A DNA stretch of 64,000 nucleotides from a virus, in UHGV virus genome UHGV-1455077; one strand, 5' to 3'. Each line of letters opens with the position of its first letter. Positions within the stretch are counted from its first letter, which is position 1. Below, piece by piece: positions 44,439 through 58,047 of this stretch. Under the pieces are notes generated by a model, which did no database searches, was not told the DNA's origin, and saw only the letters and a list, made by a program, of their open reading frames with translations. A program made the position numbers and the translations under genes.

Positions 44439-44524
44439 GCAGAGTTATACCGTAGGAGTAGCGGGACAGACTGTAAATCTGTTGCCTTTTGGCTCGGGTG
44501 GTGCGACTCCATCACTCTGCACCA
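44439..44524 (+). tRNA. tRNA-Tyr (anticodon GTA), class II, CCA encoded
   Basis: Acceptor GCAGAGT/ACTCTGC. Anticodon stem ACAGA/TCTGT with loop CTGTAAA. Long variable arm. ACCA at the 3' end. Confidence 0.75.
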
Positions 44525-45146: not shown

Positions 45147-45491
45147 ATGATAGAATTAAGAAATTGTAAAAAACACGGTTTAACAGAATTTTCATATCAT
45201 AAATCTGGTAATAGATGGAGATGTAAAAAATGTATGGTTGAAGCTGTTAAATTAAGAAGGAAAAAAATTAAAGAAAAAGCTGTCGAATATAAAGGTGGAA
45301 AATGCGAAATCTGTGGATATAATAAATGTATAGATGCATTAGAATTTCATCATTTAAATCCAAAAGAAAAAGATTTTGGAATTGGAGAAAAAGGTTATAC
45401 TCGCAGTTGGATAAAAATTCAAGAAGAACTTGATAAATGTATTATGGTGTGTGCAAATTGCCATAGAGAAATACATAATAAAGATACGTAA
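45147..45491 (+). CDS. HNH homing endonuclease
   Basis: CEICGYNKCIDALEFHHLNPKEK....CANCHREIH is the HNH/Zn motif. It lies inside the tRNA array and ends 2 nt into tRNA-Asn. Confidence 0.65.
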   Translation: MIELRNCKKHGLTEFSYHKSGNRWRCKKCMVEAVKLRRKKIKEKAVEYKGGKCEICGYNKCIDALEFHHLNPKEKDFGIGEKGYTRSWIKIQEELDKCIMVCANCHREIHNKDT

Positions 45492-45770: not shown

Positions 45771-45846
45771 GGTTCGGTGACAGAACGATTAATGTACCCG
45801 TCTGCAAAACGGTGTTTAGTGGGTTTGACTCCCACCCGAATCTCCA
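45771..45846 (+). tRNA. tRNA-Cys (GCA)
   Basis: Acceptor GGTTCGG/CCGAATC (one GU). Anticodon stem CCGT/ACGG with loop CTGCAAA. T arm GTGGGTTTGACTCCCAC. CCA encoded. Confidence 0.6.
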
Positions 45847-45875
45847 TTATTGTTTTTTCAAAATTTTTAAGAATG

Positions 45876-45942
45876 GTGAGAAATTGATTTACATAGACTG
45901 GAAATCCGTGTGTAGAAAGTTCGATTCTTTCCCCATCGACCA
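45876..45942 (+). ncRNA. tRNA-like 3'-half module (T arm, acceptor 3' strand and ACCA) preceded by the conserved GTGAG...TTTACATAG leader
   Basis: GTGAGAAATTGATTTACATAG...GAAAG TTCGATT CTTTC CCCATCG A CCA. No matching 5' acceptor lies upstream. The complementary strand CGGTGGG lies downstream at 45948. Confidence 0.4.
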
Positions 45943-45947
45943 TTTAA

Positions 45948-45975
45948 CGGTGGGTAGCTCATTGGTAGAGCAACG
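45948..45975 (+). ncRNA. tRNA 5'-half-like element (acceptor, D arm: CGGTGGG TA GCTCATTGGTAGAGCA ACG); duplicated at 55886
   Basis: It complements the upstream 3' half perfectly, with one GU. It is followed by A-rich sequence and TTATGTTCCTT, as in the second copy. Confidence 0.4.
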
Positions 45976-46652
45976 TAAAATGATAATCAATTGTTATGTT
46001 CCTTCTTAATTTTAAAAGTTTTGGTAGTTGGAAGTTAAGCTTTTGGGGCAGGAGCAACTTAACTTCCATCTATTGATGCGTGTCCTGATTTAATTAATTA
46101 CCTTCTCGTGGTTCAGGATGTAAGTAAGAATTGCAGTTTTTGACATAAGACAATTCTGAAACTAAAGATTAATATTAAAATGATTTAATTGAAGTATAGT
46201 AAATTAAATAAGTTGATTAAATAAGTGAGCAAGATAGAATCAACTAAAGGTAATAATATGCAGATTATATGCCGAACTACTAACGCTTAAGGTAGATGTA
46301 GGAAATAACCTCGGTAGGGCAATTTAATTGTTAATCTCTTAGAAGTCCTAAAAAAATAAACCGTTTTAAAAAACTGCGTTAAATTAAAATTTTGAAATTG
46401 TTGTTCTCCTTTCATTGTTTTTCATACAACAAGAGTAAAAATATTCTTAGTATCGGGAGAGGTAATATCTTATCTCTCTCTTTTTATAAAAATGCTGGCA
46501 ATATTGGTTCGAATCCAATATGTATATCTTATCCTAAAAATTACTATTATAGTATTAGATTTAAATAGTAATGATATGTCAAATTTAATAAGAACGTGTT
46601 ATTGAATTATATACATTAGTTTAATGGTAGAACCCCAGCATTTCTATAAGAA

Positions 46653-46738
46653 GATTTTTATGGGTGTATAAGTCAACGGTTAGACTAACAGCCTTTTAAG
46701 CTGTAGATTCGGGTTCGATTCCTTTATAATCAATAATG
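46653..46738 (+). pseudogene. degenerate tRNA-Lys(TTT)-like element
   Basis: The D arm AGTC AACGGTTA GACT and the anticodon arm ACAGC CTTTTAA GCTGT are perfect. The T stem and acceptor cannot be paired. Confidence 0.3.
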
Positions 46739-47219
46739 TATAAGAAAAATAACAAATTTCTTTCTTGATAATTAGGTAATGAAATTAATGCCTAATTATG
46801 ACAAGTATTTAACAAAATTTTCTGACTCTAATCAAAGAATTAGTGATTGATAGTTTAAGAATTATCTGTATACGTGAATGACACCCTTTATCAACGTTTG
46901 CATACATAACTGCATAAATCAAGATGGGTTAGGTGGTCGTTTATCCGTTTCACCTTTCATATGATAAACAAAACGAAAAACGGATTGCATTTTTTATAAT
47001 ATTCAAAATGGGTATTAGATAAGATATTGGTAGCTAGATAACCCAATATATGATAAAAACCATTATTGATAAGGTTTAAGATTTCGACCTTTAACCCAAT
47101 GGAAATCCAGTTTATCTATTGTACTTGGTTAACAATAGCGTAGAATTGGTCATTCTCAAAAAGGTACGTAAGCCTTTTTATATTAAATAAATATCTTATA
47201 TAATTTATGAGGTATTAAA

Positions 47220-47642
47220 ATGAAATTAATTGACATATTAGCATTATTTAAAGCTATAAAAAATACTGCTAAAAAATATCATTGGAAAACTGTTGGCACA
47301 ACATTTATGTCTGACCATTTATTATTTGATAGAATTTATGATGATATTGATGATGACCAAATTGATACAATTGTTGAACAATATTATATGGGTCTTGGAA
47401 GAAAAGATATTGATGATTTAGATAATTTAATTGCATTATCTGCTCAATATGAAGGACAGTCTTTTACTGCTTCTTCTGAAAATTTATTAATGATGTATCA
47501 AGAATTAGCAAGAATGATGAATACATTTTTAGTAAATGTTGAAAAATTAAATTTATTAAGAGGTATAAATTCTGAATTAGATAATATTGCATCAACAATT
47601 ACTCAATTATATGGTTTAGTAACTGCAAGATTAATTCAGTAA
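47220..47642 (+). CDS. hypothetical protein
   Basis: 140 aa ORF with a GAGGTATTAAAATG SD, inside the tRNA island. Confidence 0.45.
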   Translation: MKLIDILALFKAIKNTAKKYHWKTVGTTFMSDHLLFDRIYDDIDDDQIDTIVEQYYMGLGRKDIDDLDNLIALSAQYEGQSFTASSENLLMMYQELARMMNTFLVNVEKLNLLRGINSELDNIASTITQLYGLVTARLIQ

Positions 47643-47673
47643 TTTATAAATTTAATATTATAAACATTTAAAT

Positions 47674-47750
47674 GACCCCATCGTCTAAATGGTTAGGATA
47701 CCACCCTTTCAAGGTGAAGATTACGGGTTCAAATCCCGTTGGGGTCGCCA
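47674..47750 (+). tRNA. tRNA-Glu (TTC)
   Basis: Acceptor GACCCCA/TGGGGTC. Anticodon stem CACC/GGTG with loop CTTTCAA. T arm ACGGGTTCAAATCCCGT. GCCA at the 3' end. Confidence 0.75.
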
Positions 47751-47978
47751 ATTTTGGTTGCTATCGGAAATCAAGTGCGAATTTATGATATGATATATCG
47801 GATAAATCATATGGAAAAATGGTAACTTGTGGTACGCCAAACTTAATATGTACCGATAATGTATTAAGTTAAAAATAGCGTTTTAATATTCAATTTGTCC
47901 TTGCCTTTACTTTATAAAGGACTTACAGGCGAGGGGGTGGTCTGGAGTTTAAATAGAGGAAAGTCCCCCAACATTTTT

Positions 47979-48052
47979 GGTGTATTAGTTTAATGGTAAA
48001 ACTCCCGACTGTCTATCGGAAATCAAGGGTTCGATTCCCTTATACACCGCCA
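47979..48052 (+). tRNA. tRNA-Asp (GTC)
   Basis: Acceptor GGTGTAT/ATACACC. Anticodon stem CCGA/TCGG with loop CTGTCTA. T arm AAGGGTTCGATTCCCTT. GCCA at the 3' end. Confidence 0.75.
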
Positions 48053-48377
48053 TTTTTTATTTTATGGGAATATTATCATTCGATATTATATTTTTATCTA
48101 TCAAATAGTGATAAATCAACAGCTTAAGATTAGGACACTTAATAAATGAAACAATGTAATTTTTGTGTGTAGTAAAATTTATTGGTAGTAATTTATTAAT
48201 ATATGGAAAATCTAATGAATCATTAATGTAGAAATACACAACTTTAATGATAGTGAAAAATAATTGTCAATGGTATTTCAAACAATTGTTTGATTTGATA
48301 TATAACCACGATATAATTATATAATCAAGGTTTTACCTTGGTATTCCCCACCAAATTTATTAGAAGGATTTTTAATA

Positions 48378-48704
48378 ATGAAATATAAAAAGAAATATAT
48401 TGTAGTTGGTGCATACAAGATGAAAGATAATACAATTAATTATTCTTTTTATTATATGAATGAATGCTTTTTAAATACTTTTGCAACAACTTATTCATTA
48501 AATGAAGCTAAAGAAATTGTTAAACAGCTTTATAAAAATGTTAAAAAAGTTAATAAGCTAAAGAAAAATCGAAAAAGATATACATATTTCATTGTTAAAG
48601 CACATACATCAAAAACAAAATTATCTAATGGAAAATATTTATATATTAATAGAGATATACTTGATGAATTTAGTTCATATTGTATTAAATGTGAAATTAA
48701 ATAA
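48378..48704 (+). CDS. hypothetical basic protein
   Basis: 108 aa ORF with an AAGGATTTTTAATAATG SD. Confidence 0.4.
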   Translation: MKYKKKYIVVGAYKMKDNTINYSFYYMNECFLNTFATTYSLNEAKEIVKQLYKNVKKVNKLKKNRKRYTYFIVKAHTSKTKLSNGKYLYINRDILDEFSSYCIKCEIK

Positions 48705-49021
48705 AAATGAGATATATGCCTAATGTTTTCGGTAAAAAATCAAGAAAACAAATGCCTAAATGGTCAAGACATATATCAATAGTCTGTGGTACCAAATTCC
48801 GTAAGGTTCAGCGGGAACTCCTGTATTTATACTTTCCTGCTGGTAAAAAGTTCAGTCATCGAACATAGAATGACCAAACCAGCGATAAAGGTGGAAAGCC
48901 TTTAACAATATATGTGTAGATATGGCGAAAGTTGGTAAAAGCTCCGAGTGATATTGGTTTTAGGTTGTTTGAATTTTGAAGGTTAAAATTCAATTCCTTT
49001 TTCTATGTATATAATTAATTT

Positions 49022-49097
49022 GGGTGTGTAACTTAATTGGTAGAGAAACTGACTCTTAATCAGTATGATGAGGGTTCGAGTCCCTCTGCACCCACCA
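49022..49097 (+). tRNA. tRNA-Lys (CTT)
   Basis: Acceptor GGGTGTG/TGCACCC (two GU). Anticodon stem ACTGA/TCAGT with loop CTCTTAA. T arm GAGGGTTCGAGTCCCTC. ACCA at the 3' end. Confidence 0.7.
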
Positions 49098-49113
49098 ATA
49101 TGTAAATTTAATT

Positions 49114-49189
49114 GCACCCATAGGCTAATTGGACAAACCCAAAGTCTTCTAAACTTTTATTACAGGTTCGAGTCCTGTTGGGTGTGCCA
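49114..49189 (+). tRNA. tRNA-Arg (TCT)
   Basis: Acceptor GCACCCA/TGGGTGT. Anticodon stem AAAGT/ACTTT with loop CTTCTAA. T arm ACAGGTTCGAGTCCTGT. GCCA at the 3' end. Confidence 0.75.
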
Positions 49190-49201
49190 TTTATAAAAAA
49201 T

Positions 49202-49324
49202 GATGAAACGGTGTGGCGGTGTACACGTCTGAAAGTAATAGACCTAGACTTTTAGTTTGAAAGTGAAAGCTAAACAAAGGTATTACCGTTAGAGGAAGTA
49301 AGAAGTCATTGGTTCAACTCCAAT
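49202..49324 (+). ncRNA. Elongated (~123 nt) tRNA-like gene; a tRNA with a ~50-nt insertion, or a tRNA-like sRNA
   Basis: Acceptor GATGAAA/TTTCATC is perfect. D arm GTGT GGCGGTGT ACAC. T arm ATTGG TTCAACT CCAAT. The body is too long for class I or II tRNA. No CCA is encoded. Confidence 0.4.
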
Positions 49325-49329
49325 TTTCA

Positions 49330-49406
49330 TCACAAATGCTCGGTTAGTTCAGTTGGAAGAACACCGCTTTTACACAGCGGGGGTCGGCAGTTCGAACCTG
49401 TCACCG
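49330..49406 (+). tRNA. tRNA-Val (TAC)
   Basis: Acceptor GCTCGGT/ACCGAGT. D arm GTTC AGTTGGAA GAAC. Anticodon stem CCGCT/AGCGG with loop TTTACAC. ACCA at the 3' end. Confidence 0.75.
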
Positions 49407-49415
49407 AGTACCAAA

Positions 49416-49444
49416 AAATATCTTGACAATAAATAAAATAAATT
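49416..49444 (+). promoter_or_regulatory. consensus sigma70 promoter inside the tRNA array
   Basis: TTGACA, a 17-nt spacer and TATAAT, directly upstream of tRNA-Gln. Confidence 0.65.
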
Positions 49445-49449
49445 ATATA

Positions 49450-49525
49450 ATAAAGTTATATTGGAAAGTCATCTAAGGGTAGGATAGCGGACTTTGACTC
49501 CGTTCATACTGGTTCGAATCCAGTC
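49450..49525 (+). tRNA. tRNA-Gln (TTG)
   Basis: Acceptor TGGAAAG/CTTTCCA. Anticodon stem GCGGA/TCCGT with loop CTTTGAC. T arm ACTGGTTCGAATCCAGT. GCCA at the 3' end. Confidence 0.7.
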
Positions 49526-49820
49526 TTTCCAGCCATTTTTTAACTGGGGTTATGACTGTTATTCCCCATTCAGGTAAATGATACAGCTATTGTTATGAAG
49601 TAACACGTTGAGGAATACTATCGTGAAAAAGTATTGGTTTGTTGGTTATTTGTTAGATATGTCAAAGTTTTGGAATTCCCAAAAACCTGAAATCAACAGG
49701 GTATAATAAAACATCCTTGAGTTATATTAAGTTTGTCTTAAAGCATTTAATATAAACATTAAAGTTTTATTCGTGAATACTGAAACAATGTTAAGTACGT
49801 TAATCTTAACAATGTTAATG

Positions 49821-49911
49821 GAATGTTACCCAAGTCTGGTGAAGGGGACTGTTTGCTAAACAGTTAGGAGCAGTAATGTTCGCAGAGGTTCAAATCCTCT
49901 ACATTCCGCCA
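49821..49911 (+). tRNA. tRNA-Ser (GCT), class II
   Basis: Acceptor GGAATGT/ACATTCC. Ser-type D arm. Anticodon stem CTGT/ACAG with loop TTGCTAA. Long variable arm. T arm CAGAGGTTCAAATCCTCT. GCCA at the 3' end. Confidence 0.8.
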
Positions 49912-49942
49912 TTTTGAAAAATAATTTTTCAAAAAAAGTTCT

Positions 49943-49970
49943 TGACAATATAAATTAAATATATTATATT
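49943..49970 (+). promoter_or_regulatory. sigma70-like promoter
   Basis: AGTTCTTGACA, a 16-17 nt spacer and TATATT. Confidence 0.55.
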
Positions 49971-50363
49971 AAGTTCATAAGGAGTTACCATTAGTCCTTA
50001 AATCACAATCATAATGGCGTTAGAATATCACGAGACGATATTTGGTTTGTAGTTATCCAGAACTATAATGTCACAATACGGACATTTCGTAAATTTAAAA
50101 ACTGTATTGCGTGGCTGATTACCCATACCATTACGACAAGATGGTTAAAAAATTTAGGTTAAAATGTGATTCCTATAAATCAAAAAAGACATTCTTTTAC
50201 TATTTTAGAGTTAGAAAATAGCGTTCATAATTAGAGTGAAATTATCGGTGAATTTGATATTACATCGTGATAAAAAATATTGAAGGAAGGAAAACCGTGT
50301 TGAAACCTTATTTAATCATTGTTATAAATGATTCGTGGTGATTCAATAACTATTACGTGAATA

Positions 50364-50441
50364 TAGTTTTTAATAGGCTCGTGGTGTTAATGGTTGGCAC
50401 GTTCGCCTGATAAGCGAGAGGTTTGTGAGTTCGAATCTCAC
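50364..50441 (+). tRNA. tRNA-Ile (GAT)
   Basis: Acceptor AGGCTCG/CGAGCCT. Anticodon stem TTCGC/GCGAG with loop CTGATAA. T arm GTGAGTTCGAATCTCAC. ACCA at the 3' end. Confidence 0.75.
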
Positions 50442-50487
50442 CGAGCCTACCAAATTAAAATTAATTTTTTGTGGGAGTATAAAATAA

Positions 50488-50700
50488 ATGCCAATGGAAA
50501 AGAAAGTTCTTACACAGGAAGAAAAAGAACTTAAAAAGAAAGAACAAGAATTTAATAAACATATGAATCAAGTATGGAAGCTAAGACCATATAAAATTAA
50601 TGGAATTTCTAAGAATGTTGGTAAAGCTCCAAAATGTAATACAAAAGTTAAAACTGAAAGACCAGTTGAAATGGTAAATCAGAAAAAGAAAAAGAAGTAA
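50488..50700 (+). CDS. small lysine-rich protein
   Basis: 70 aa ORF, K-rich at the C-terminus. Confidence 0.35.
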   Translation: MPMEKKVLTQEEKELKKKEQEFNKHMNQVWKLRPYKINGISKNVGKAPKCNTKVKTERPVEMVNQKKKKK

Positions 50701-50841
50701 TTAAAAAATATTTTTAATCGAAATTGAGTAAATCTTGAATATTTTATATTTGCAAGATAAATGCGATAGAGTAGCGAGAATCGAACGCTTGTAACAAATG
50801 TTCGGCTGTTAGAGTTCAGTATAAAAACTCATTTTTCTTAT

Positions 50842-50921
50842 TCTCTGGTAGCTAAACTGGTTGTAGCGGCGGTCTTATAAACCGTGTCTTTATGTGAGTT
50901 CAAGTCTCATCCAGAGAACCA
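50842..50921 (+). tRNA. tRNA-Ile (TAT), reads AUA (possibly a modified Ile2-type or Met-like tRNA)
   Basis: Acceptor TCTCTGG/CCAGAGA. D arm GCTA AACTGGTTG TAGC. Anticodon stem GCGGT/ACCGT with loop CTTATAA. T arm GTGAGTTCAAGTCTCAT. ACCA at the 3' end. Confidence 0.6.
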
Positions 50922-51319
50922 TTTTAAAAAATTTTTCAGAAATATATAAAATGGAACAAATGCTAGATAGTTCAATTCTATCAATCTTGTTAAAGATAAA
51001 GGACGGTATTTGAAAAGGTTTGAAGCCCATTATATTACTGAAATTTGGTTCAGACAATATCCATACAGCCGTATAACGTGTGGTGAGCCAATTAATTTAT
51101 GGGTCGCTCCCAATTAACGAATGGGTCTGATGACTTTTATAATTTTTCAATAAGAAAAAGTGTTGCAACAACCATTGATATAAAATCGTTTGCTAACAAG
51201 TTCGTGTATATCATATATGGTTAATAATGTTAGAGGAATAATTTGATATTTTGACTATGTAGAAAATATCCGATAGATTGGATAATCTTCATAAATCATT
51301 CGTTAAGTGATTATTTTAA

Positions 51320-51392
51320 TGCGGAATAGAGCAGAGGTAGCTTAACTGGCTCATAACCAGGAGGTCGGGCGGTTCGAATCCCCCTTCCGCAA
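51320..51392 (+). tRNA. tRNA-Met/Ile2 type (CAT), no encoded CCA
   Basis: Acceptor TGCGGAA/TTCCGCA is perfect. Anticodon stem CTGG/CCAG with loop CTCATAA. T arm GGCGG TTCGAAT CCCCC with one C-C mismatch. It ends ...A ACA. Confidence 0.55.
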
Positions 51393-51497
51393 CATCTAAC
51401 AAAAGCAAAACCTTTACGTGGTGTTAGATATAAGTAATTCGATTTGAATGAAACCAATTTGCTTAATTATTGAAAAATAGATATTTAAGGTTCAATA

Positions 51498-52163
51498 ATG
51501 TATTACCTAATTTATAAAATAACTAATAATGTAAATAATAAAATCTATATTGGAAAACATCAAACGGAAAATAAAGATGATGATTATATGGGTTCTGGAA
51601 AAATAATAAAAAGAGCTATTGAAAAATATGGTATAGATAAATTTACAAAAGAAATATTATATGAATGTAATTCATTAGAAGAAATGAATGAAAAAGAAGC
51701 AGAAATTGTTGATGAAGAATTTGTTGTTCGTTTAGATACATATAATATTAAATTAGGTGGTCAAGGTGGATGGGATTATGTCCATAAATATACTGATTGG
51801 AATGGATTTAAATATATAAATTCACAAAAGTTAAATAATAAATCGAATCAGTATAAAATATCTGCTGAAAAACTTAAAAATGATGAAAAATATGCAAAAG
51901 AATTTTCTTTAAAAATTTCTAATGGATTAAAATTATATTACCAATTACATAATAATCCATTTAAAGGGAAAAAACATACAATTGAATCAAAAATAAAAAT
52001 TGGTAAAGCAAATGCTATTAAACAAGCTGGTGAAGGAAATTCCAATTATGGAAAATGTTGGATTTATAATGAAGAATTAAAAGAAAATAAATCTATTAAA
52101 AAAGAAAATTTACAATCTTGGTTAGAGAAAGGTTGGAAAAAAGGGAGAAAAATGAAATTTTAA
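51498..52163 (+). CDS. GIY-YIG homing endonuclease (I-TevI/Seg-like)
   Basis: MYYLIYKITNNVNNKIYIGKH...YMGSGKIIKRAIEKYG is the canonical GIY-(10)-YIG module followed by R and E. A basic, DNA-binding-like C-terminus follows. It is embedded between tRNA genes. Confidence 0.7.
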   Translation: MYYLIYKITNNVNNKIYIGKHQTENKDDDYMGSGKIIKRAIEKYGIDKFTKEILYECNSLEEMNEKEAEIVDEEFVVRLDTYNIKLGGQGGWDYVHKYTDWNGFKYINSQKLNNKSNQYKISAEKLKNDEKYAKEFSLKISNGLKLYYQLHNNPFKGKKHTIESKIKIGKANAIKQAGEGNSNYGKCWIYNEELKENKSIKKENLQSWLEKGWKKGRKMKF

Positions 52164-52284
52164 ATTATTTATATAATTTAATTTTTTACTGGTAGGTACG
52201 AAGATAGCTCAAATACCTCGTTAAACTAAATAGTCGTGCTATCCGCAAACCTTTAGGAAGTAAATGGCGTTATAAGTAACTTCC

Positions 52285-52359
52285 TGTTTATAATGGCAAT
52301 GTAGTGAAAAGGTTATCACGACTGACTCATATTCAGTAATTTCAAGTTCGATTCTTGAC
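52285..52359 (+). tRNA. tRNA-Met (CAT), second copy, different sequence
   Basis: Acceptor GGCAATG/CATTGCT. D arm GTGA AAAGGTTA TCAC. Anticodon stem ACTGA/TCAGT with loop CTCATAT. T arm TCAAGTTCGATTCTTGA. ACCA at the 3' end. Confidence 0.7.
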
Positions 52360-52399
52360 ATTGCTACCATTCATTATTAACTTGTGGGATATTAATTTA

Positions 52400-53563
52400 A
52401 TGACAAATTACATTATAAATAATAATATCGTCAGAATTTTTGGCGAAGATGAAATCAATATTAAACCAGAAATTCCATTAGGAACATATTTGGTTAAAGA
52501 AAATGAATTAACAGGTGAATTGTTTTTAGAAAGAACAGCAGATTTTGTAAAGCCTGAAAAAATATATGGAGAATGTGAATTCCAATCTGAACGAATTATT
52601 AAAACATTTAAAGACAGACCTAATAATACTGGAGTTCTTTTAAATGGTGCAAAAGGTTCAGGAAAAACATTTTTAACTAAGTATATTTCCTATAAGCTTT
52701 TAAAAGATAATTATCCAACAATAATTATTAATGATATATTTAGTCCAACAAAGTTATCTTTATTAATTCAAACAATTAGTGAACCTTGTGTCATTATTTT
52801 TGATGAATTTGAAAAAATTTATCAATCAAATAAAAAAGATGATTTGCAAAACCCACAGAATGGTTTACTTTCATTGCTTGATGGTTTATTTCAAACTAAA
52901 AAGCTATTCATCTTTACTTGTAATGATGATAGTAATATTTCAGATTTGATGAAGAATAGACCTGGTAGAATTTTTTATAAATTGGAATTTAAAGGAATTA
53001 CTGAAAAAACAATTGAAGAATATTGTGAAGAAAAATTAAATAATAAATCATATATTTCTCAAATTTTTAGTATTCGTAAAATGATTAAAGATTTTACCTT
53101 TGATATTTTACAAGCAATTGTTGAAGAAGTTAATCGTTATAATGAAACTCCTTTAGATGTTGTTAAAATGCTTAATGTAACTCCAGAATCTTTATATGCA
53201 AAATATACTGTATCAATTAAGCCATTAAAGAATCAACAAATTGTAAAATTTGAAAAATCTTTATGGGTAAATCCATTATCTTCAGAAGAAGAATCAGTAT
53301 GGATTTATAGAACTAAAACATCAAATGCAGATGATAATAAATATGTTGTTGAAGACGAGGATATTAAAATTTGTGAGCTTAGTTGTGAAACTGATGATGA
53401 TGAAGATAATAATGTTAAAACAGTTACTGATTATTTTCCAGTATCATTGCTTACAATGGTATCATCTAACAAAAATACTTATGTGTATCAGAATGAAGAA
53501 TATCAGGTTACTTTAACTAAAAAGATTATTGATACTGATGATATGTGGAAGTATGCATTTTAA
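52400..53563 (+). CDS. AAA+ family ATPase
   Basis: Walker A LLNGAKGSGKTFLT and Walker B IIFDEFEKI are present. The start is set to the ATG at 52400, because the 52355 start of the ORF track lies inside tRNA-Met. Confidence 0.5.
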   Translation: MTNYIINNNIVRIFGEDEINIKPEIPLGTYLVKENELTGELFLERTADFVKPEKIYGECEFQSERIIKTFKDRPNNTGVLLNGAKGSGKTFLTKYISYKLLKDNYPTIIINDIFSPTKLSLLIQTISEPCVIIFDEFEKIYQSNKKDDLQNPQNGLLSLLDGLFQTKKLFIFTCNDDSNISDLMKNRPGRIFYKLEFKGITEKTIEEYCEEKLNNKSYISQIFSIRKMIKDFTFDILQAIVEEVNRYNETPLDVVKMLNVTPESLYAKYTVSIKPLKNQQIVKFEKSLWVNPLSSEEESVWIYRTKTSNADDNKYVVEDEDIKICELSCETDDDEDNNVKTVTDYFPVSLLTMVSSNKNTYVYQNEEYQVTLTKKIIDTDDMWKYAF

Positions 53564-53743
53564 AAAATTATTGACATATAAAAAATATTATGTTAATTGT
53601 TATAACAAAAGGGAAAATAAAAAACGCCCCTCTGTTAGAAATATATGAGTAGAAATAACAAGTCGTTAAGAAGATTCGCCTTATCTAACAAGGTTAAAGA
53701 GTTTTTTCCTAAAGATGATTTAGGTTTGATGATAAATCAGTAA

Positions 53744-53772
53744 AAAATATATTGACATATGTTAATTATTAT
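53744..53772 (+). promoter_or_regulatory. sigma70-like promoter
   Basis: TATTGACA, a 17-nt spacer and TATATT. Confidence 0.4.
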
Positions 53773-54347
53773 GATATATTTAATTATATTTTAATTTTAA
53801 GTAATATATTAAAATCATTTAATAATTGGTTGGCAAGACCAATAGGATGCCTTTTTAAGGCAATGAAAGTAAAATCTTTCTTTTAATATATGAAGATAAA
53901 TTATGTCGTGAATGATTTAGTCGGAGAGATAAGCGACTAAGATAAAATAAAAAAATCTCAAATTCCATAGACGTATGGACGGCATAATAAATTAAATTGT
54001 TGTAACTCAAACAATGGGTAGCCTGCCCATAAGAGTATGCTGGATAATCTGAAAAGATTTGAAGGTAGTTGTGAGTAATACGAATCATAAGGTTGAAATA
54101 GCCACGGTTGGCTAACCGTGAGTGACGTAAGAACCAGACAAATCGTACAGATGAATAGGTCTGATGGCTGTATCTGGTTGGGAGTAGTCATTCTCCCCAT
54201 CCATTAAGCAAAGGAGTAATTAACCTTTGTGGGTGTGACTGAATAATGTGTCGTATGAGGGGCTTGTTGGTAGTCAGGAGTCCAACCAATAATTTAATTT
54301 TAACAGTTTGTGGCAGTCGTTCTGTTTAAAAACTCTGCCTTTTTAAA

Positions 54348-54380
54348 CAAACAGATAGTGATTATTAGATTTACATAGTT
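54348..54380 (+). ncRNA. minimal member of the ATAGTGA...TTTACATAG element family (leader plus T-hairpin only)
   Basis: AGATAGTGATTATTAGATTTACATAG TTCGATTC TAT. Confidence 0.3.
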
Positions 54381-54475
54381 CGATTCTATATTTTTTCATA
54401 TAAAAAGGAAAAATGCCAAAAGGGTGGCGTTTACAATCTAATGAATTTTCTTCTGTTTATTTAAAAATTTTCGAT

Positions 54476-54540
54476 AGTGAGTATAAGATTTACATAGACC
54501 AGACTTTTAATCTGACATTTACAAAATCTTATAGATTGTT
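54476..54540 (+). ncRNA. family member with a Lys-like anticodon hairpin (CAGA CTTTTAA TCTG) but no T arm
   Basis: CGATAGTGAGTATAAGATTTACATAGACCAGACTTTTAATCTGACATTTACAAAATCTTATAG. Confidence 0.3.
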
Positions 54541-54560
54541 CTTCGAATTAATACTTTTTT

Positions 54561-54678
54561 GTGAATAGTGAGATATTAGGTTTACATAGCTAAAGTGGTT
54601 AAAGCATTTGACTTGAAATCAAAGTATTGTAGGTTCGATTCCTACTGTAATTTTAACTTAATAAAATGTTCTTTCACA
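54561..54678 (+). ncRNA. Y-RNA-like candidate: leader GTGAATAGTGAG, an embedded cloverleaf tRNA mimic (54580-54653, anticodon-loop TGA, acceptor GTTTACA/TGTAATT, no CCA) and a 3' strand TTCTTTCAC that can pair with the leader
   Basis: D arm GCT AAAGTGGTTAA AGC. Anticodon stem TTTGA/TCAAA with loop CTTGAAA. T arm GTAGG TTCGATT CCTAC. A canonical tRNA-Ser(TGA) is present separately at 54728. Confidence 0.4.
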
Positions 54679-54727
54679 AATTTAATTATTTGACACTTTA
54701 TTATAAATGTTATATAAATAATAATAT

Positions 54728-54813
54728 GGAAGGTAACTGGCTGGATGAAGACACCGACTTGAAATCGGCTGGGCGTAACTGCTTTGGGGGTTCGAGTCCC
54801 TCACCTTCCGCCA
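54728..54813 (+). tRNA. tRNA-Ser (TGA), class II
   Basis: Acceptor GGAAGGT/ACCTTCC. Anticodon stem CCGA/TCGG with loop CTTGAAA. Long variable arm. T arm GGGGGTTCGAGTCCCTC. GCCA at the 3' end. Confidence 0.8.
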
Positions 54814-54820
54814 TTTTTAT

Positions 54821-55513
54821 TTGGTATTGTGGGATATGATAAAAGTAAGTAGAAAAGAATACGAAAATAATCCAGAAAAATATATTATATATTGTACAAA
54901 ATGTAAAAAACCAATAATATTTAAAGATTATAGACATTATTGTGATAGAGTTAATAAAATTAATATTAGACATCATCAACCATTTTGTTCAAAAGAATGC
55001 TCATATGAATATCATAGATTATTTACAAATAAAGGAATTTGTGATTTTTGTGGTAAAGAGTTTATTAGACAAAATGTTTATGGGGATAAAAGACAAAAAC
55101 ATACATTTTGTTCACAAAAATGTTCTGCAAAATATTTTAATAGTCATAAAAAATTTGGTTATAGAAAATCAAAAGCTGAAGAATATATTGTAAGTCAATT
55201 AAAAAAAAGATTATCCGTATTTAAATATTAAAGAAAATGATGTATCAACAATAGGTAAAGAACTTGATATTTATTTACCAGATTTAAATTTAGCATTTGA
55301 AATTAATGGTATAGTTCATTATAAACCTATATATGGAAAAGAAAAGTTAAATAAAATACAAAATAATGATTTTTTTAAAAAAGAATTATGTGAAAGTAAA
55401 AATATTTTATTGACAATAATTAATATAAGTGATATAAAAGTATTTAAAGAGAATTTAATTATAAATAAATATAATTACATTAAAGAAATTATAAGTAATA
55501 CAATGCCACGATA
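54821..55513 (+). pseudogene. Split homing-endonuclease-like gene: the 54821-55231 ORF (Cys/His-rich zinc-finger N-domain) and a +1-frame continuation 55203-55513 (DUF559/Vsr-like PD-(D/E)XK nuclease motif), joined at an A8 homopolymer
   Basis: Frame 0 ends ...QLKKRLSVFKY*. Frame +1 reads KKDYPYLNIKENDVSTIGKELDIYLPDLNLAFEINGIVHYKPIYGKEKL... The D.YLP...LA.E..G..H motif is typical of the endonuclease-domain (DUF559) family. The run AAAAAAAA at 55201-55208 is the junction. Confidence 0.5.
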
Positions 55514-55580
55514 GCTCAACTGGCAGAGCAACCGATTTGTAATCGGTAGGTTGGGGATTCGACTTCCTCTCGTGGCACCA
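55505..55580 (+). tRNA. tRNA-Thr (TGT)
   Basis: Acceptor GCCACGA/TCGTGGC. D arm GCTC AACTGGCA GAGC. Anticodon stem ACCGA/TCGGT with loop TTTGTAA. T arm GGGGATTCGACTTCCTC. ACCA at the 3' end. Confidence 0.8.
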
Positions 55581-55711
55581 GATTTTAATAAGCTCCCCCG
55601 CTAAAGATACTTTGTGTATACAGCGAATATGGGTCAAAGTTTAAACTTTGCATTAAATTATAATAATTGTACAATAAAAAATTATGTGAGCATTTTTTAA
55701 TTTTGTATGGT

Positions 55712-55745
55712 AATAGTGACTTAAAGAATTACATAGATAACTGAT
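55712..55745 (+). ncRNA. leader-motif copy (AATAGTGACTTAAAGAATTACATAG) with no recognisable tRNA body
   Basis: It matches the family consensus ATAGTGA-N(9-12)-TTACATAG. Confidence 0.25.
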
Positions 55746-55805
55746 TATTGTCTGCCAAAACAAGAAATTCTTTAAAATTATTCTTTACCATTTAAACTAT
55801 TTTAG

Positions 55806-55877
55806 CAATAGTGAGAAAAGGATTTACATAGGTTTGTAACCCGTTGGTAATTGGTTCGAATCCAATCAAGTAATTGA
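55806..55877 (+). ncRNA. tRNA-like 3'-half module with leader (GCAATAGTGAGAAAAGGATTTACATAG ... ATTGG TTCGAAT CCAAT CAAGTAA)
   Basis: It parallels the 45876 module: leader, mini-hairpin GGTT tgt AACC, T arm and acceptor 3' strand. The complementary TTATTTG strand follows at 55886. Confidence 0.35.
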
Positions 55878-55885
55878 AATATATT

Positions 55886-55910
55886 ATTTGTAGCTCATTG
55901 GTAGAGCAAC
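55886..55910 (+). ncRNA. second copy of the tRNA 5'-half-like element (TTATTTG TA GCTCATTGGTAGAGCA ACG)
   Basis: 21 nt are identical to 45955-45975. The downstream sequence is A-rich and contains TTATGTTCTTT, as in copy 1. Confidence 0.35.
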
Positions 55911-55954
55911 GATAAAAAATAATCCTTTATTATGTTCTTTGCTAACAAATATTT

Positions 55955-56070
55955 GGTGATAGTGATTAATTAGGTTTACATAGCTTAATGGTTAGAGCAT
56001 TGATTTAACACATCAAACGTTACAGGTTCAACTCCTGTTGTAATTAATACCTAATTTACTATTCTTCACC
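55955..56070 (+). ncRNA. Y-RNA-like candidate directly upstream of the Ro60/Rsr operon: a long terminal stem (5' GGTGA.TAGTGA.TTAATTAGG / 3' CCTAATT.ACTAT.TCACC with bulges) enclosing a cloverleaf tRNA mimic (55974-56046; acceptor GTTTACA/TGTAATT, anticodon-loop AAC, no CCA)
   Basis: D arm GCTT AATGGTTA GAGC. Anticodon stem TTGAT/ATCAA with loop TTAACAC. T arm ACAGG TTCAACT CCTGT. It is followed by the strong terminator at 56089. Confidence 0.45.
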
Positions 56071-56088
56071 AGTTCAATTTTGCACCCA

Positions 56089-56121
56089 AGAACATATGTT
56101 CTTGGGTATTTTTTTATATAA
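56089..56121 (+). terminator. rho-independent terminator
   Basis: ACCCAAGAACAT ATGTTCTTGGGT followed by ATTTTTTT. Confidence 0.7.
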
Positions 56122-56126
56122 GTTAT

Positions 56127-56156
56127 TGACAAATCATCTATAAATGAAGTATATTA
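56127..56156 (+). promoter_or_regulatory. sigma70-like promoter of the Ro60 operon
   Basis: GTTATTGACA, an 18-nt spacer and TATATT, upstream of 56182. Confidence 0.5.
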
Positions 56157-56760: not shown

Positions 56761-58047
56761 ATGAAAACAAATAAAGCTGAAAAGAAACCAGCAATTTACA
56801 CTAATGAAGGTGGTAAAGCATCTCATATTAGTGATTTAGAAGAATTGAAAAGAGCAACAATGTCTTGTTTGCTTTGGGAAGATAACTTCTATGAAGATGG
56901 TGTATCAATTGCTGACAGAATTACCTCTTTAGTTAAAAATTGTATTGATAAAGGTCATTATGATGATGTAATTGATATTTTGAAAACTGTAAAATTTGAT
57001 ATGAGATTACGTCATTGTCCATTGTGGATGATTGTTGCAATTTATAAAGCAGGTAAAACTATTGATAAGAATGTTATTGCATCTATTCTTACAAGACCAG
57101 ATGATATGGGAGAATTACTTTCTCTTTATCGTAAAGACCAAGCAAATGCACCTATTCCAAATGCTATGAAAAAAGCTATGGCTATTGCCATTACTAAATT
57201 TGATGAATATCAATTGGCTAAATGGAATCGTGATGCTAATTACAAATTGGTTGATATTGTAAACATTTGTCATCCACAAGTAACTGAAGCTATTGATAAG
57301 TTGGTTAAAGGAACTTTAGAAACTCCAAAAACTTGGGAAGTTCTTCTTTCTGCCGCTGGTTCTGATAAAGAAAAGAAAAAAGAAGCTTGGTTGGATTTGA
57401 TTGAAACTAATAAATTACCTGATATGGCTCTTTTGAAGAATATTCGTGGTATGTTGGATGTAGGTGTTTCTAAAAACACATTGGTTGACCGTATTAATAA
57501 TATTAAAAATGGTAGATTATTGCCAATTGATTATATTAGAGCGGCAAATACAAATCCATCATTGGAAAATGAAATTGAAAAGAAATTCTTAAATTGCTTT
57601 GAAAAACCTTCTTTGAATGGTAAGACTGCAATTTTAGTAGATGTGTCAGGTTCTATGGATGGAGAAAGATTAAATTATGCAAATGCATTAGCGATGATTG
57701 GTCGTGAAATGTGTGAAAATGTTGATATTTACTCATTCTCTAATGAAGTCAAATTCATTCCAAATCGTAGAGGATTTGCTTTAGCAGAAGCTATTGATAA
57801 ATCACAATACCATAATGGAACTTATATGTGGGATGCTATTAGTACAGTTGAAAAAGCTCATTACGATAGATTAATTGTTATTACTGATGAGCAAACAATG
57901 GGTATGCCACACAACGCAGTTATTAAAAATGCATACATTATTAATGTTGCACCATATAATAAAGGTGTTGGTTACAATAATGGTTACAAACATATTAATG
58001 GTTTTTCAGATAAAGTATTTAATTATATTACTGAAATTGAAAAATAA
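56761..58047 (+). CDS. rsr: Ro60/Rsr-like protein (TROVE-like N-terminal region plus C-terminal von Willebrand A domain)
   Basis: The vWA MIDAS motif is AILVDVSGSMDG, with downstream ...VITDEQT. The N-terminal segments LLWEDNFYEDG and DDVIDILKT...RLRHCPLWMIVAI resemble the Ro60 family (L.FGSEGGTYY ... EVI.EI ... P.LFALAIA). Confidence 0.55.
   Translation: MKTNKAEKKPAIYTNEGGKASHISDLEELKRATMSCLLWEDNFYEDGVSIADRITSLVKNCIDKGHYDDVIDILKTVKFDMRLRHCPLWMIVAIYKAGKTIDKNVIASILTRPDDMGELLSLYRKDQANAPIPNAMKKAMAIAITKFDEYQLAKWNRDANYKLVDIVNICHPQVTEAIDKLVKGTLETPKTWEVLLSAAGSDKEKKKEAWLDLIETNKLPDMALLKNIRGMLDVGVSKNTLVDRINNIKNGRLLPIDYIRAANTNPSLENEIEKKFLNCFEKPSLNGKTAILVDVSGSMDGERLNYANALAMIGREMCENVDIYSFSNEVKFIPNRRGFALAEAIDKSQYHNGTYMWDAISTVEKAHYDRLIVITDEQTMGMPHNAVIKNAYIINVAPYNKGVGYNNGYKHINGFSDKVFNYITEIEK

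What the first reader, a model, noticed from the sequence alone, without database searches (positions are those of the whole stretch)
45874..55975. Seven-copy family of a ~30-nt leader motif ATAGTGA-N9-12-TTTACATAG, each heading a tRNA-like fragment
Copies lie at 45874, 54348, 54476, 54564, 55712, 55806 and 55946. The downstream bodies range from a bare T-hairpin (54348), through an anticodon hairpin only (54476) and a T arm plus acceptor 3' strand with ACCA (45876, 55806), to complete cloverleaves (54580, 55974). The motif is absent from all canonical tRNAs in the island. It could be a dedicated promoter or processing signal, the 5' strand of Y-RNA-like stems, or the footprint of a mobile tRNA-derived (SINE-like) element.
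Basis: seen in the sequence. Interest (0 to 1): 0.7.

Follow-up and report, generated by a model that had tools for sequence, protein, structure and literature searches.

The report
Seven Y-RNA genes beside phage Ro60
The repeated "leader" is the 5' half of a conserved stem-loop-stem scaffold shared by seven small structured RNA genes, most likely Y RNAs that bind the Ro60 protein encoded just downstream in this jumbo phage; two of them carry a complete tRNA cloverleaf whose anticodon differs between closely related phages.

Summary
The seven copies are real. ATAGTGA-N8-9-TTTACATAG starts at 45873, 54355, 54474, 54565, 55713, 55808 and 55959, against 0.00 expected by chance. Every copy has a 3' partner, giving this layout: outer helix, internal loop (5' UAGUGA, 3' ..GUUCU), inner helix, UUUACAUAG, variable cargo. 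Both helices covary strongly: 95.6% of cells are paired, against 43-53% when partners are slid.

Two units (c1, c6) match Rfam YrlA, with a permuted tRNA-like domain. Two (c4, c7) enclose full cloverleaves. Three carry small hairpins. A TROVE/vWA protein, a Ro60 ortholog, is encoded 0.7 kb downstream of c7.

A relative whose Ro60 is 59% identical has the same array, but with GGCGA(A/G) in place of AGUGA. That is the published Ro60-binding GNCGAA/CGAA motif.

So this is a seven-member Y-RNA family in a human-gut-type jumbo phage. It is not a promoter and not a mobile element. The kind is known. Three things look new: the size of the array, the C-to-U motif variant, and the complete tRNA modules. 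Those modules lack an encoded CCA, and their anticodons differ among near-identical relatives (UGA/UUU/GUU/GUA/GAU).

Binding to Ro60 is inferred, not shown.

The parts
45867..46009 (+). c1: YrlA-type Y-RNA-like gene. Layout: H1 helix TTAAGAA/TTCTTAA; 5' loop UGGUGA; inner helix AATTGAT/ATCAATT; UUUACAUAG; V hairpin; T arm; closed 7-bp acceptor-like stem followed by ACCA; D arm; 3' loop GUUAUGUUCC.
   Evidence: Sequence. Helix partners. Rfam YrlA RF02553 hit at 45890-46003, 42.5 bits, E 1.3e-6. RNAalifold consensus.
54349..54458 (+). c2: Y-RNA-like scaffold (H1 AAACAGA/TCTGTTT; inner helix ATTAGAT/ATCTAAT). The cargo is 65 nt and includes a T-arm-like hairpin, AUAG-UUCGAUU-CUAU.
54468..54549 (+). 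c3: Y-RNA-like scaffold. H1 is only 5 bp (TTCGA/TCGAA, 54470-54547); inner helix TATAAGAT/ATCTTATA. The cargo is a small hairpin with a pyrimidine-rich 7-nt loop, CUUUUAA.
54559..54679 (+). c4: tRNA-type Y-RNA-like gene. The scaffold (H1 TTGTGAA/TTCACAA; inner helix TATTAGG/CTTAATA) encloses a complete class-I cloverleaf at 54580-54653 with anticodon UGA. It has no encoded CCA, and only about 5 bp of its acceptor stem pair.
   Evidence: ARAGORN. Rfam tRNA 61.2 bits. Helices. RNAalifold. 3' ends.
55707..55791 (+). c5: Y-RNA-like scaffold (H1 ATGGTAA/TTACCAT; inner helix TTAAAGAAT/ATTCTTTAA) with a 39-nt hairpin cargo. Its inner motif reads AUUACAUAG.
55802..55945 (+). c6: YrlA-type Y-RNA-like gene. 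Layout: H1 TTAGCAA/TTGCTAA; inner helix AAAGGAT/ATCCTTT; V hairpin UUACA/UGUAA; T arm; closed 7-bp acceptor-like stem (no CCA); D arm.
   Evidence: Rfam YrlA hit at 55817-55931, 35.4 bits, E 1.4e-4. Also.
55953..56072 (+). c7: tRNA-type Y-RNA-like gene. The scaffold (H1 TGGTGA/TCACCA; inner helix AATTAGG/CCTAATT) encloses a complete cloverleaf at 55974-56046 with anticodon AAC. It has no encoded CCA.
   Evidence: (59.3 bits).
56084..56107 (+). Intrinsic-terminator-like hairpin (10 bp, followed by a T run) that closes the c5-c7 array.
56761..58047 (+). Ro60 (Rsr) ortholog of 428 aa, with a TROVE domain plus a weak vWA-like C-terminal region. It is the presumed protein partner of the seven RNAs.
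   Evidence: Pfam TROVE E 2.5e-17, with weak VWA_2 (E 0.0025, below the Pfam cut-off). Near full-length match to Thermus phage phiLo Ro60 structures 9KOP/9L5Y, E 1.9e-13. Relatives from other phages.

Best explanation
The seven motif copies are the 5' halves of seven genes for small structured non-coding RNAs of the Y-RNA kind. These are the RNA partners of the Ro60 protein, which is encoded 0.7 kb downstream of the last copy.

Each RNA is 80-145 nt long and has two modules. The first is a common scaffold formed by pairing its 5' and 3' ends. It consists of an outer helix that closes with an invariant A-U pair, a conserved asymmetric internal loop (5' U-AG-UGA, 3' ..(G)UU-CU), and an inner helix of 7-10 bp followed by UUUACAUAG. 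The AG and CU of the two loop strands pair with each other across a bulged U. The loop motif RGUGA is the C-to-U, AT-rich form of the GNCGAA/CGAA motif that Ro60 recognises on the 5' strand of Y RNAs.

The second module is a variable cargo displayed at the far end of the scaffold:
- a permuted tRNA-like domain of the YrlA type (c1, c6);
- a complete cloverleaf in normal tRNA order (c4, c7);
- a small hairpin (c2, c3, c5).

By analogy with characterised Y RNAs, the scaffold docks on the Ro60 ring. The cargo then recruits or mimics a second partner, such as tRNA-binding enzymes or exoribonucleases like PNPase.

What is shown here: the repeat, the pairing and its covariation, the YrlA and tRNA similarity, the adjacent Ro60 gene, and the motif's equivalence with GGCGA in a related array. 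What is inferred: transcription, Ro60 binding and the downstream function.
For: 1. Seven copies against 0.00 expected.
2. Every copy has a 3' partner. On 17 distinct scaffolds from the window and three related phages, 95.6% of cells form pairs, against 43-53% when partners are slid. 14 of 16 pairs show changes on both sides. 0 of 500 shuffles reach the observed score. The MFE folds recover the outer helix in all seven units and the inner helix in six; c1's MFE takes an alternative pairing.
3. c1's A-to-G change (AUGGUGA) is matched by UUCU-to-UUCC, which supports the AG/CU pairing.
4. Rfam YrlA hits c1 (42.5 bits, E 1.3e-6) and c6 (35.4 bits, E 1.4e-4). RNAalifold finds a T arm, a closed 7-bp acceptor-like stem and a D arm, with covariation.
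5. ORF 56761-58047 is a TROVE/vWA protein. It matches the solved phage Ro60 structures 9KOP/9L5Y over residues 14-427.
6. Three phages whose Ro60 is 86% identical each carry seven syntenic copies.
7. A phage whose Ro60 is 59% identical (L124) carries five units directly upstream of Ro60. Their 5' motif is GGCGA(A/G)-N7-8-TTTACATAG, with GG pairing to CC. GNCGAAN0-1G is the proposed Rsr-binding motif of YrlA/YrlB (PMC4201824). A 'stem, internal bulge with CGAA, stem' layout describes the Ro60-binding Yrl1/Yrl2 of Thermus phage phiLo (PMC12135203).
8. GC-rich phages whose Ro60 is about 36-39% identical (L126, L129, L127) carry U(A/G)GUGA(A/G) next to Ro60; L126 also shows the 3' ..AUGUUCC.
9. 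Units are packed 7-10 nt apart. This resembles the polycistronic Y-RNA precursors of M. smegmatis and D. radiodurans (PMC4201824).
Against: - No expression or binding data exist.
- Both YrlA hits are below Rfam's gathering score (69 bits).
- The window's motif differs from the published GNCGAA at the C position (U here), and its sixth base is not conserved.
- c1 lies 10.8 kb from the Ro60 gene, outside the 4-kb neighbourhood used by Chen et al.
- c4 and c7 score as well as ordinary tRNAs, so they could simply be tRNA genes with unusual leader-trailer helices.
- The role of the invariant UUUACAUAG is not explained by published Y-RNA models.
- The 3' partners used for the covariation count were chosen by a script that maximised pairing within an anchored window. 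This inflates the paired fraction somewhat.
Confidence: 0.8

Rival explanations
1. tRNA processing signal. The leader-trailer helices are recognition structures for an endonuclease (RNase III-like or phage-encoded) that excises tRNAs and tRNA fragments from the polycistronic island transcript. Ro60 plays no part.
For: c4 and c7 are good cloverleaves enclosed by the helices. Units are tightly packed in arrays. The island must be processed, because promoters are few.
Against: Five of the seven units contain no tRNA to release. The 22 other tRNA-like genes of the island lack the scaffold. The helices are 5-7 bp (outer) plus 7-10 bp (inner), interrupted by a large loop, which is short for RNase III. 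The conserved loop motif is interchangeable with the Ro60-binding GGCGA motif in L124. The family travels with Ro60 across about 36-86% protein identity.
Confidence: 0.1
2. c4 and c7 are ordinary decoding tRNAs (Ser-UGA, Val-AAC), and the shared upstream motif is only a remnant of tandem duplication of a tRNA 5' region.
For: Rfam tRNA scores of 61.2 and 59.3 bits lie within the range of the island's other tRNAs. The anticodon loops keep 7 nt, with U33 and a purine at position 37, in all variants. A CCA-adding-enzyme-like gene is present at 10846-12111.
Against: - No CCA is encoded, whereas 19 of the 22 other tRNA-like genes in the island encode it.
- The acceptor stem is only about 5 bp, with a U-U or A-C mismatch, and decays to about 3-4 bp in the L124 ortholog.
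- c4 has a class-I body with a serine anticodon. From established tRNA identity rules, bacterial SerRS needs the long variable arm. A proper long-arm tRNA-Ser(UGA) sits 75 nt downstream of c4's cloverleaf, at 54728-54809.
- The same body carries UGA, UUU, GUU, GUA or GAU in relatives.
- The 3' partner motif and the covarying helices are not explained by a duplication remnant.
Confidence: 0.07
3. The motif is a phage promoter (TTTACA as the -35 element), or the units are a mobile tRNA-derived (SINE/MITE-like) repeat.
For: TTTACA matches TTGACA at 5 of 6 positions. The units have inverted-repeat ends and varied tRNA-like contents.
Against: No -10-like hexamer follows TTTACA at 16-18 nt in any copy (sequence; scans). 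The inverted ends differ between copies and covary, so it is structure that is conserved, not sequence. No target-site duplications are evident. Copies are confined to the Ro60 neighbourhood and are syntenic in relatives. IMG/VR hits outside this phage group are single chance matches.
Confidence: 0.03

Closest known systems
YrlA (Rfam RF02553), the tRNA-mimicking Y RNA of Salmonella, Mycobacterium and mycobacteriophages (Chen et al. 2014, PMC4201824)
   Same: c1 and c6 share several features with YrlA. They have a Ro60-module stem formed by the 5' and 3' ends. They have a V hairpin, T arm, closed acceptor-like stem and D arm in the same permuted order. They are encoded on the same strand as Ro60. 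Like M. smegmatis YrlA, which is cut by RNase P and receives CCA, c1 has a 7-bp acceptor-like stem, here followed by an encoded ACCA.
   Different: The scores (42.5 and 35.4 bits) are below the family's gathering score of 69. The units have an extra outer helix. The Ro-motif sits in an internal loop and reads RGUGA instead of GNCGAA. An invariant UUUACAUAG follows the inner helix.
Yrl1/Yrl2 of Thermus phage phiLo with phage Ro60 (PMC12135203; PDB 9KOP, 9L5Y)
   Same: These are phage-encoded Y-like RNAs directly upstream of a phage Ro60 gene. They have a stem / internal bulge with a CGAA-type motif / stem architecture. The window's Ro60 is homologous over nearly its full length.
   Different: phiLo has two RNAs and the window has seven. 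The phiLo RNAs are not reported to contain tRNA-like or full tRNA modules. The motif here is GUGA. No binding data exist for the window's RNAs.
Deinococcus radiodurans Yrn1/Yrn2 (PMC4201824)
   Same: Yrn1 has its ends at the acceptor side, with a T arm, D-like features and an 'anticodon arm' between them. This is the same orientation as c4 and c7. In D. radiodurans several Y RNAs and a tRNA are co-transcribed near rsr.
   Different: Yrn1's anticodon-like loop has 6 nt and its D arm is doubtful. By contrast, c4 and c7 are complete cloverleaves that pass the Rfam tRNA threshold, with a 7-nt loop, U33 and R37.
[quoted passage not shown]
   Same: c2, c3 and c5 have a Ro-module stem plus a short hairpin. 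c3's loop, CUUUUAA, is pyrimidine-rich. c2 carries a T-arm-like hairpin, as M. smegmatis YrlB does.
   Different: There is no sequence similarity, and the assignment rests on architecture only.
Permuted tRNA genes (e.g. in Cyanidioschyzon merolae; from my own knowledge, not checked here)
   Same: In c1 and c6 the T arm and acceptor 3' strand precede the acceptor 5' strand and D arm.
   Different: No anticodon arm is reconstituted. Only a 3-bp stem joins the domain to the scaffold, so no functional tRNA can be made by circularisation.

Membership tests
Y RNA (Ro60-associated ncRNA, bacterial/phage type) | Encoded close to a Ro60/TROVE gene and on the same strand (within 4 kb in Chen et al. 2014). 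| tested here: met
   c2-c7 lie 0.7-2.4 kb upstream of the TROVE ORF at 56761-58047, on the same strand. c1 is 10.8 kb upstream, outside the 4-kb criterion, but it is syntenic in three relatives.
Y RNA (Ro60-associated ncRNA, bacterial/phage type) | 5' and 3' ends pair into a stem interrupted by an internal loop or bulge (stem-bulge-stem). | tested here: met
   Covariation count on 17 scaffolds: 95.6% paired, 14 of 16 pairs with double changes. MFE folds show the outer helix in all seven units and the inner helix in six.
Y RNA (Ro60-associated ncRNA, bacterial/phage type) | Conserved Ro60-binding motif on the 5' strand (GNCGAAN0-1G / CGAA; GGUCCGA in vertebrates). | tested here: inconclusive
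   The window has (A/G)GUGA(N): U in place of C, with a variable sixth base. The orthologous arrays in L124 have GGCGA(A/G) at the same position. L126 has GGUGAAG and AGUGAAG. Equivalence is inferred from position and context.
Y RNA (Ro60-associated ncRNA, bacterial/phage type) | Physical association with Ro60, and stabilisation by it. | not testable with these tools
   Needs EMSA or co-immunoprecipitation.
YrlA (Rfam RF02553) | Covariance-model score at or above the gathering threshold (69 bits). | tested here: not met
   c1 scores 42.5 bits and c6 35.4 bits. The E-values of 1.3e-6 and 1.4e-4 indicate real but divergent similarity.
YrlA (Rfam RF02553) | tRNA-like module consisting of a T arm, a closed acceptor-like stem and a D arm, in that order. 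| tested here: met
   cmscan alignments. RNAalifold on six sequences shows covariation in the T and acceptor-like stems.
tRNA (for c4 and c7) | Cloverleaf scoring above the Rfam tRNA threshold. | tested here: met
   61.2 and 59.3 bits against a gathering score of 29. ARAGORN calls both.
tRNA (for c4 and c7) | 7-bp acceptor stem ending in a free 3' NCCA (encoded in this island's tRNAs). | tested here: not met
   About 5 bp pair, with a U2-U71 mismatch. The 3' side runs into the scaffold helix. No CCA is encoded, whereas 19 of the 22 other tRNA-like genes encode it. Post-transcriptional processing and CCA addition cannot be excluded.
tRNA (for c4 and c7) | Anticodon consistent with body identity and conserved among orthologs. 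| tested here: not met
   The c4-type carries UGA, UUU, GUU, GUA or GAU, and the c7-type AAC, AAU or UGA, on near-identical bodies. Neither has a long variable arm to go with the Ser or Tyr anticodons.
Sigma-70 promoter | -35 and -10 hexamers at 16-18 nt spacing upstream of a transcript. | tested here: not met
   No -10 element follows TTTACA at that spacing. The motif lies inside a covarying RNA structure.
Mobile SINE/MITE-like repeat | Conserved terminal repeats, target-site duplications and dispersed or polymorphic insertion sites. | tested here: not met
   The ends differ in sequence and covary. Copies occur only near Ro60 and are syntenic in relatives. IMG/VR hits elsewhere are chance singletons.

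The most novel reading that the evidence does not exclude
The tRNA-type units (c4, c7) are Ro60-docked RNAs that display a genuine anticodon stem-loop whose anticodon is turned over rapidly: UUU, GUU, GUA, UGA, GAU, AAC and AAU on near-identical bodies. They might act as decoys or sensors for host tRNA-targeting defences (anticodon nucleases) or for anticodon-modifying enzymes. In that reading the Ro60/Y-RNA particle is a phage counter-defence or tRNA-surveillance device with exchangeable 'bait' modules.

The evidence is only suggestive. Anticodons differ among relatives while loop architecture (7 nt, U33, R37) and the stem are kept. However, only 4 of 26 variable columns fall in the 7-nt loops, against about 1.5 expected (my Poisson estimate is P about 0.07).
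Probability: 0.12. Interest if true: 0.85.

Novelty: new variant of a known kind. Interest (0 to 1): 0.55.

Why it matters
Y RNAs and Ro60 are conserved from bacteria to humans, and Ro60 is a major lupus/Sjögren autoantigen. Even so, what the variable Y-RNA module does is still poorly understood.

This phage group occurs in human-gut metagenomes. It offers a natural series of seven paralogous RNAs with one common Ro60-type scaffold and three kinds of cargo, including both orientations of tRNA mimicry in one genome. That makes modularity directly testable: swap the cargo, keep the scaffold.

It also extends the sequence definition of the putative Ro60-binding motif from CGAA to YGA(R) in an internal loop. 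This should help find Y RNAs in AT-rich genomes, where Rfam's YrlA model falls below threshold.

For annotation, it shows that two 'tRNA genes' called by ARAGORN and Rfam in this island are probably not decoding tRNAs.

Tried and rejected
- BLASTN of 54300-56100 against INPHARED phages found only generic tRNA and homing-endonuclease matches, with no close relative.
- The loose DNA pattern in IMG/VR returned more than 119 loci. Apart from the window's own contig and one relative, these are single chance matches without the 3' partner.
- A structure-aware scan (RGYGA plus two helices) gave three extra window hits, at 20725, 32111 and 48252. Two lie inside ORFs and the third runs into one. None has UUUACAUAG. 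The control rate was 15 hits in 2 Mb, so I treat them as chance.
- I considered a pseudoknot between ACAUA of the 5' motif and UAUGU of the 3' loop. It is possible in c1 and c6 but not conserved in the other units, so I dropped it.
- I considered a k-turn or box C/D reading of AUAGUGA. The 3' strand has no GA, so I dropped it.
- I considered hammerhead and other ribozyme cores. There were no matches (Rfam).
- I considered true permuted tRNA genes for c1 and c6. I rejected this because no anticodon arm can be formed.
- c1's acceptor-like stem has G3-U70, A73 and CCA, which are alanine identity elements. The feature is not conserved in the L124 units, so I treat it as possibly coincidental.
- The test for an excess of substitutions in the anticodon loop is only marginal.
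- Two Y-RNA reviews (PMC10870794, PMC6047535) are not held in the library.

Full report
**1. Observation**

The window carries a tRNA island on the + strand: 21 ARAGORN tRNAs between 44.5 and 60.2 kb. The motif occurs seven times on the + strand. Five copies have an 8-nt spacer (45873, 54355, 54474, 55713, 55808; up to 1 mismatch) and two have a 9-nt spacer (54565, 55959). Shuffles give an expectation of 0.00.

The spacer is really N8-9, c1 reads ATGGTGA, and c5 reads ATTACATAG. None of the other tRNA-like genes has the motif.

The window corresponds to IMG/VR contig 3300045988_152892, a 216.8-kb jumbo-phage genome. It differs from that contig by 5 small changes across 54300-56120.

**2. Anatomy: each copy has a 3' partner**

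Reading the flanks shows that each copy is the 5' half of a larger unit. The layout is as follows:
- An outer helix H1 of 5-7 bp. Its sequence differs in every unit, and it always closes with an A-U pair.
- A 5' loop UAGUGA plus 2 nt.
- An inner helix S of 7-10 bp, again different in every unit.
- UUUACAUAG, followed by the cargo.
- The 3' strand of S, a 3' loop ending in (G)UUCU, and the 3' strand of H1.

A script that anchored on T[TA]C[TC]T found partners with 12-14 of 14 positions paired for all seven units, and for all 21 units of three related phages. The spans are:

| Unit | Span |
|---|---|
| c1 | 45867-46009 |
| c2 | 54349-54458 |
| c3 | 54468-54549 |
| c4 | 54559-54679 |
| c5 | 55707-55791 |
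| c6 | 55802-55945 |
| c7 | 55953-56072 |

Unconstrained MFE folding recovers the outer helix in all seven units and the inner helix in six; c1's MFE takes an alternative pairing in place of AATTGAT/ATCAATT.

On 17 distinct scaffolds (alignment A1), the named structure gives these counts:
- 95.6% of cells are paired, against 43-53% when 3' partners are slid by 1-3 columns.
- 14 of 16 pairs have changes on both sides, 83 cells in all.
- 0 of 500 shuffles reach the observed covariation score.

The single A-to-G change in c1 (AUGGUGA) is matched by UUCU-to-UUCC. This supports two further pairs (AG/CU) across a bulged U.

One caveat applies. The 3' partners were chosen by maximising pairing within an anchored window, so the paired fraction is somewhat optimistic. 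The sequence diversity of the helices is not affected by that choice.

**3. Cargo**

c1 and c6 match Rfam YrlA (RF02553) end to end: 42.5 bits with E 1.3e-6, and 35.4 bits with E 1.4e-4. Both are below the gathering score of 69. With orthologs, RNAalifold predicts a V hairpin, a 3-bp connector, a T arm, a closed 7-bp acceptor-like stem and a D arm. The T and acceptor-like stems show compensatory changes. c1's acceptor-like stem is followed by ACCA; c6's is not.

c4 and c7 enclose complete cloverleaves (Rfam tRNA 61.2 and 59.3 bits). RNAalifold places a 4-5-bp acceptor stem on top of the S helix, with a 5-6-nt 3' bulge. It also finds a D arm, a covarying 5-bp anticodon stem with a 7-nt loop, and a T arm.

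c2, c3 and c5 carry short hairpins. c2's is T-arm-like (AUAG-UUCGAUU-CUAU), and c3's has a pyrimidine-rich loop.

**4. Context**

ORF 56761-58047 (428 aa) lies 0.7 kb downstream of c7 on the same strand. It has a TROVE domain (E 2.5e-17) and a weak vWA-like region. It aligns over residues 14-427 with the solved Ro60 of Thermus phage phiLo (9KOP/9L5Y, E 1.9e-13).

A strong terminator-like hairpin (56084-56107) follows c7, and a near-consensus promoter (56126-56155) follows that. Units within the arrays are separated by only 7-10 nt.

A PolyA_pol-family protein, CCA-adding-enzyme-like, is encoded at 10846-12111.

**5. Relatives**

Ro60 homologs were found in 11 other viral contigs.

Three jumbo phages from the same metagenome have Ro60 86% identical to the window's. 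Each carries seven units, six within 1.3 kb upstream of Ro60 and one about 8.7 kb upstream. The motifs and the order of unit types are the same.

L124 (Ro60 59% identical) has five units behind a TTGACA-16-TATATT promoter directly upstream of Ro60. Their 5' motif is GGCGA(A/G)-N7-8-TTTACATAG. GG pairs with CC across a 1-nt bulge, exactly where the window has AG/CU. Rfam finds YrlA there too (37.9 bits), along with a tRNA-like unit orthologous to c4.

L126 (38% identical, 58% GC) has four units with U(A/G)GUGAAG ... AUGUUCC and GGUUUCAUC. L129 and L127 show the same 5' motif, and in L127 it sits in front of a tRNA-like body.

A metagenome scan added 11 loci, several of them from human-gut assemblies.

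**6. Interpretation**

Chen et al. 2014 (PMC4201824) reported the following:
- YrlA-type RNAs lie next to Ro60 in 254 bacteria and 22 phages.
- GNCGAAN0-1G near the 5' end is the likely Rsr-binding motif.
- Each locus has several Y RNAs, often made as one precursor.
- An M. smegmatis YrlA with a 7-bp acceptor stem is cut by RNase P and receives CCA.
- D. radiodurans Yrn1 has the opposite orientation, with an anticodon-like arm.

The phiLo study (PMC12135203) describes Ro60-binding phage Yrl RNAs as a 5'-3' stem flanking an internal bulge that carries CGAA.

The window's scaffold has this architecture, and its RGUGA occupies the place of GGCGA in L124. Binding, expression and function are inferred by homology.

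**7. Are c4 and c7 real tRNAs?**

Several points argue against it:
- No CCA is encoded, whereas 19 of the 22 other tRNA-like genes encode it.
- The acceptor stem is weak, and it decays in L124.
- c4 has a class-I body with a serine anticodon, while a long-arm tRNA-Ser(UGA) lies 75 nt downstream of its cloverleaf.
- The anticodon is not conserved on near-identical bodies. The c4-type carries UGA, UUU, GUU, GUA or GAU; the c7-type carries AAC, AAU or UGA.

Some points argue for it. The Rfam scores are good, and the loop architecture (7 nt, U33, R37) is kept in all variants.

I consider them tRNA mimics of the Yrn1 orientation, but processing into tRNA-like molecules cannot be excluded.

The concentration of substitutions in the anticodon loop is only marginal: 4 of 26 variable columns against about 1.5 expected.

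**8. Rivals**

- Promoter: no -10 element follows TTTACA, and the motif lies inside a covarying structure.
- Mobile element: the ends are not conserved in sequence, the units are syntenic in relatives, and they are confined to the Ro60 neighbourhood.
- Pure processing signal: five units contain no tRNA, and the motif is exchangeable with the Ro60 motif.

These are rejected or ranked low.

**9. Novelty**

The kind is known: phage Ro60 plus Y RNAs, including tRNA mimics. The library searches turned up no description of any of the following:
- A seven-member paralogous array on one shared scaffold.
- The GUGA loop variant and the invariant UUUACAUAG junction.
- YrlA-type and complete-cloverleaf tRNA-type modules coexisting in one genome.
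- Non-conserved anticodons on the tRNA-type modules.

I rate it a new variant of a known kind, of moderate interest.

Noticed in passing
window 51394-51466 (+): There is a weak match to the HDV-like ribozyme family RF02682 (21.1 bits against a gathering score of 44; E 0.049 in a 201-nt search). It starts 2 nt after the Rfam-defined end (51392) of a tRNA-Met(CAU) gene at 51320-51392, one of the few tRNAs in the island without an encoded CCA. The P1 helix AUCUAAC/GUUAGAU and the core ACCUUUACGUGGUG align with the model. It could be a tRNA-3'-end-processing HDV-like (theta-type) ribozyme.
   Followed up: partly
window 45771-45843, 44441-44519, 54728-54809 (+): Three tRNA-like genes were missed by ARAGORN but found by Rfam: 46.8 bits, 29.8 bits, and a long-variable-arm Ser(UGA)-like gene whose best hit is tRNA-Sec at 30.7 bits. 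The last sits behind a sigma-70-like promoter (TTGACA...TATAAA) at about 54691-54718.
   Followed up: partly
window 10846-12111 (+): This ORF has a PolyA_pol head domain plus an RNA-binding domain (E 7e-20 and 6e-11). It is probably a phage CCA-adding enzyme, which would be relevant to the CCA-less c4, c6 and c7.
   Followed up: no
window 45932-45956 (c1 acceptor-like stem): The closed acceptor-like stem of c1 is 5' CGGUGGG / 3' CCCAUCG. This gives a G3-U70 wobble, A73 and an encoded CCA, which are the alanine identity set also used by tmRNA. The feature is identical in the three close relatives and absent from the L124 units, so it may be coincidence.
   Followed up: partly
window 54821-55500 (+): A zinc-finger ORF (54821-55231) is followed, in another frame, by a region resembling a DUF559/Vsr-like endonuclease fold (my reading of the translated sequence, not tested with a tool). 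The IMG/VR contig lacks one A of the A-run at about 55201. The gene may therefore be a frameshifted or sequencing-error-split homing endonuclease sitting between c4 and c5. Other homing-endonuclease-like ORFs in the island are GIY-YIG at 51498-52163 and HNH at 45147-45491.
   Followed up: no
window 48251-48290 (+): An isolated exact ATAGTGA is followed by a hairpin-capable ATAATTGT...ACAATTGT, but there is no UUUACAUAG and no clean 3' partner outside an ORF. It is probably chance, or possibly a decayed eighth unit.
   Followed up: partly
window 52355-53563 (+): A 402-aa AAA/STAND-like NTPase ORF begins inside the 3' end of the tRNA-Met gene at 52295-52369, within the tRNA island. Its function is unknown.
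   Followed up: no
L127 3880-3965: In a GC-richer phage (Ro60 39% identical) a tRNA-like body (Rfam tRNA model positions 3-68, 36.3 bits) is directly preceded by UAGUGAG, downstream of Ro60 inside another tRNA island. This suggests that tRNA-type Y RNAs are not confined to the window's clade.
   Followed up: no
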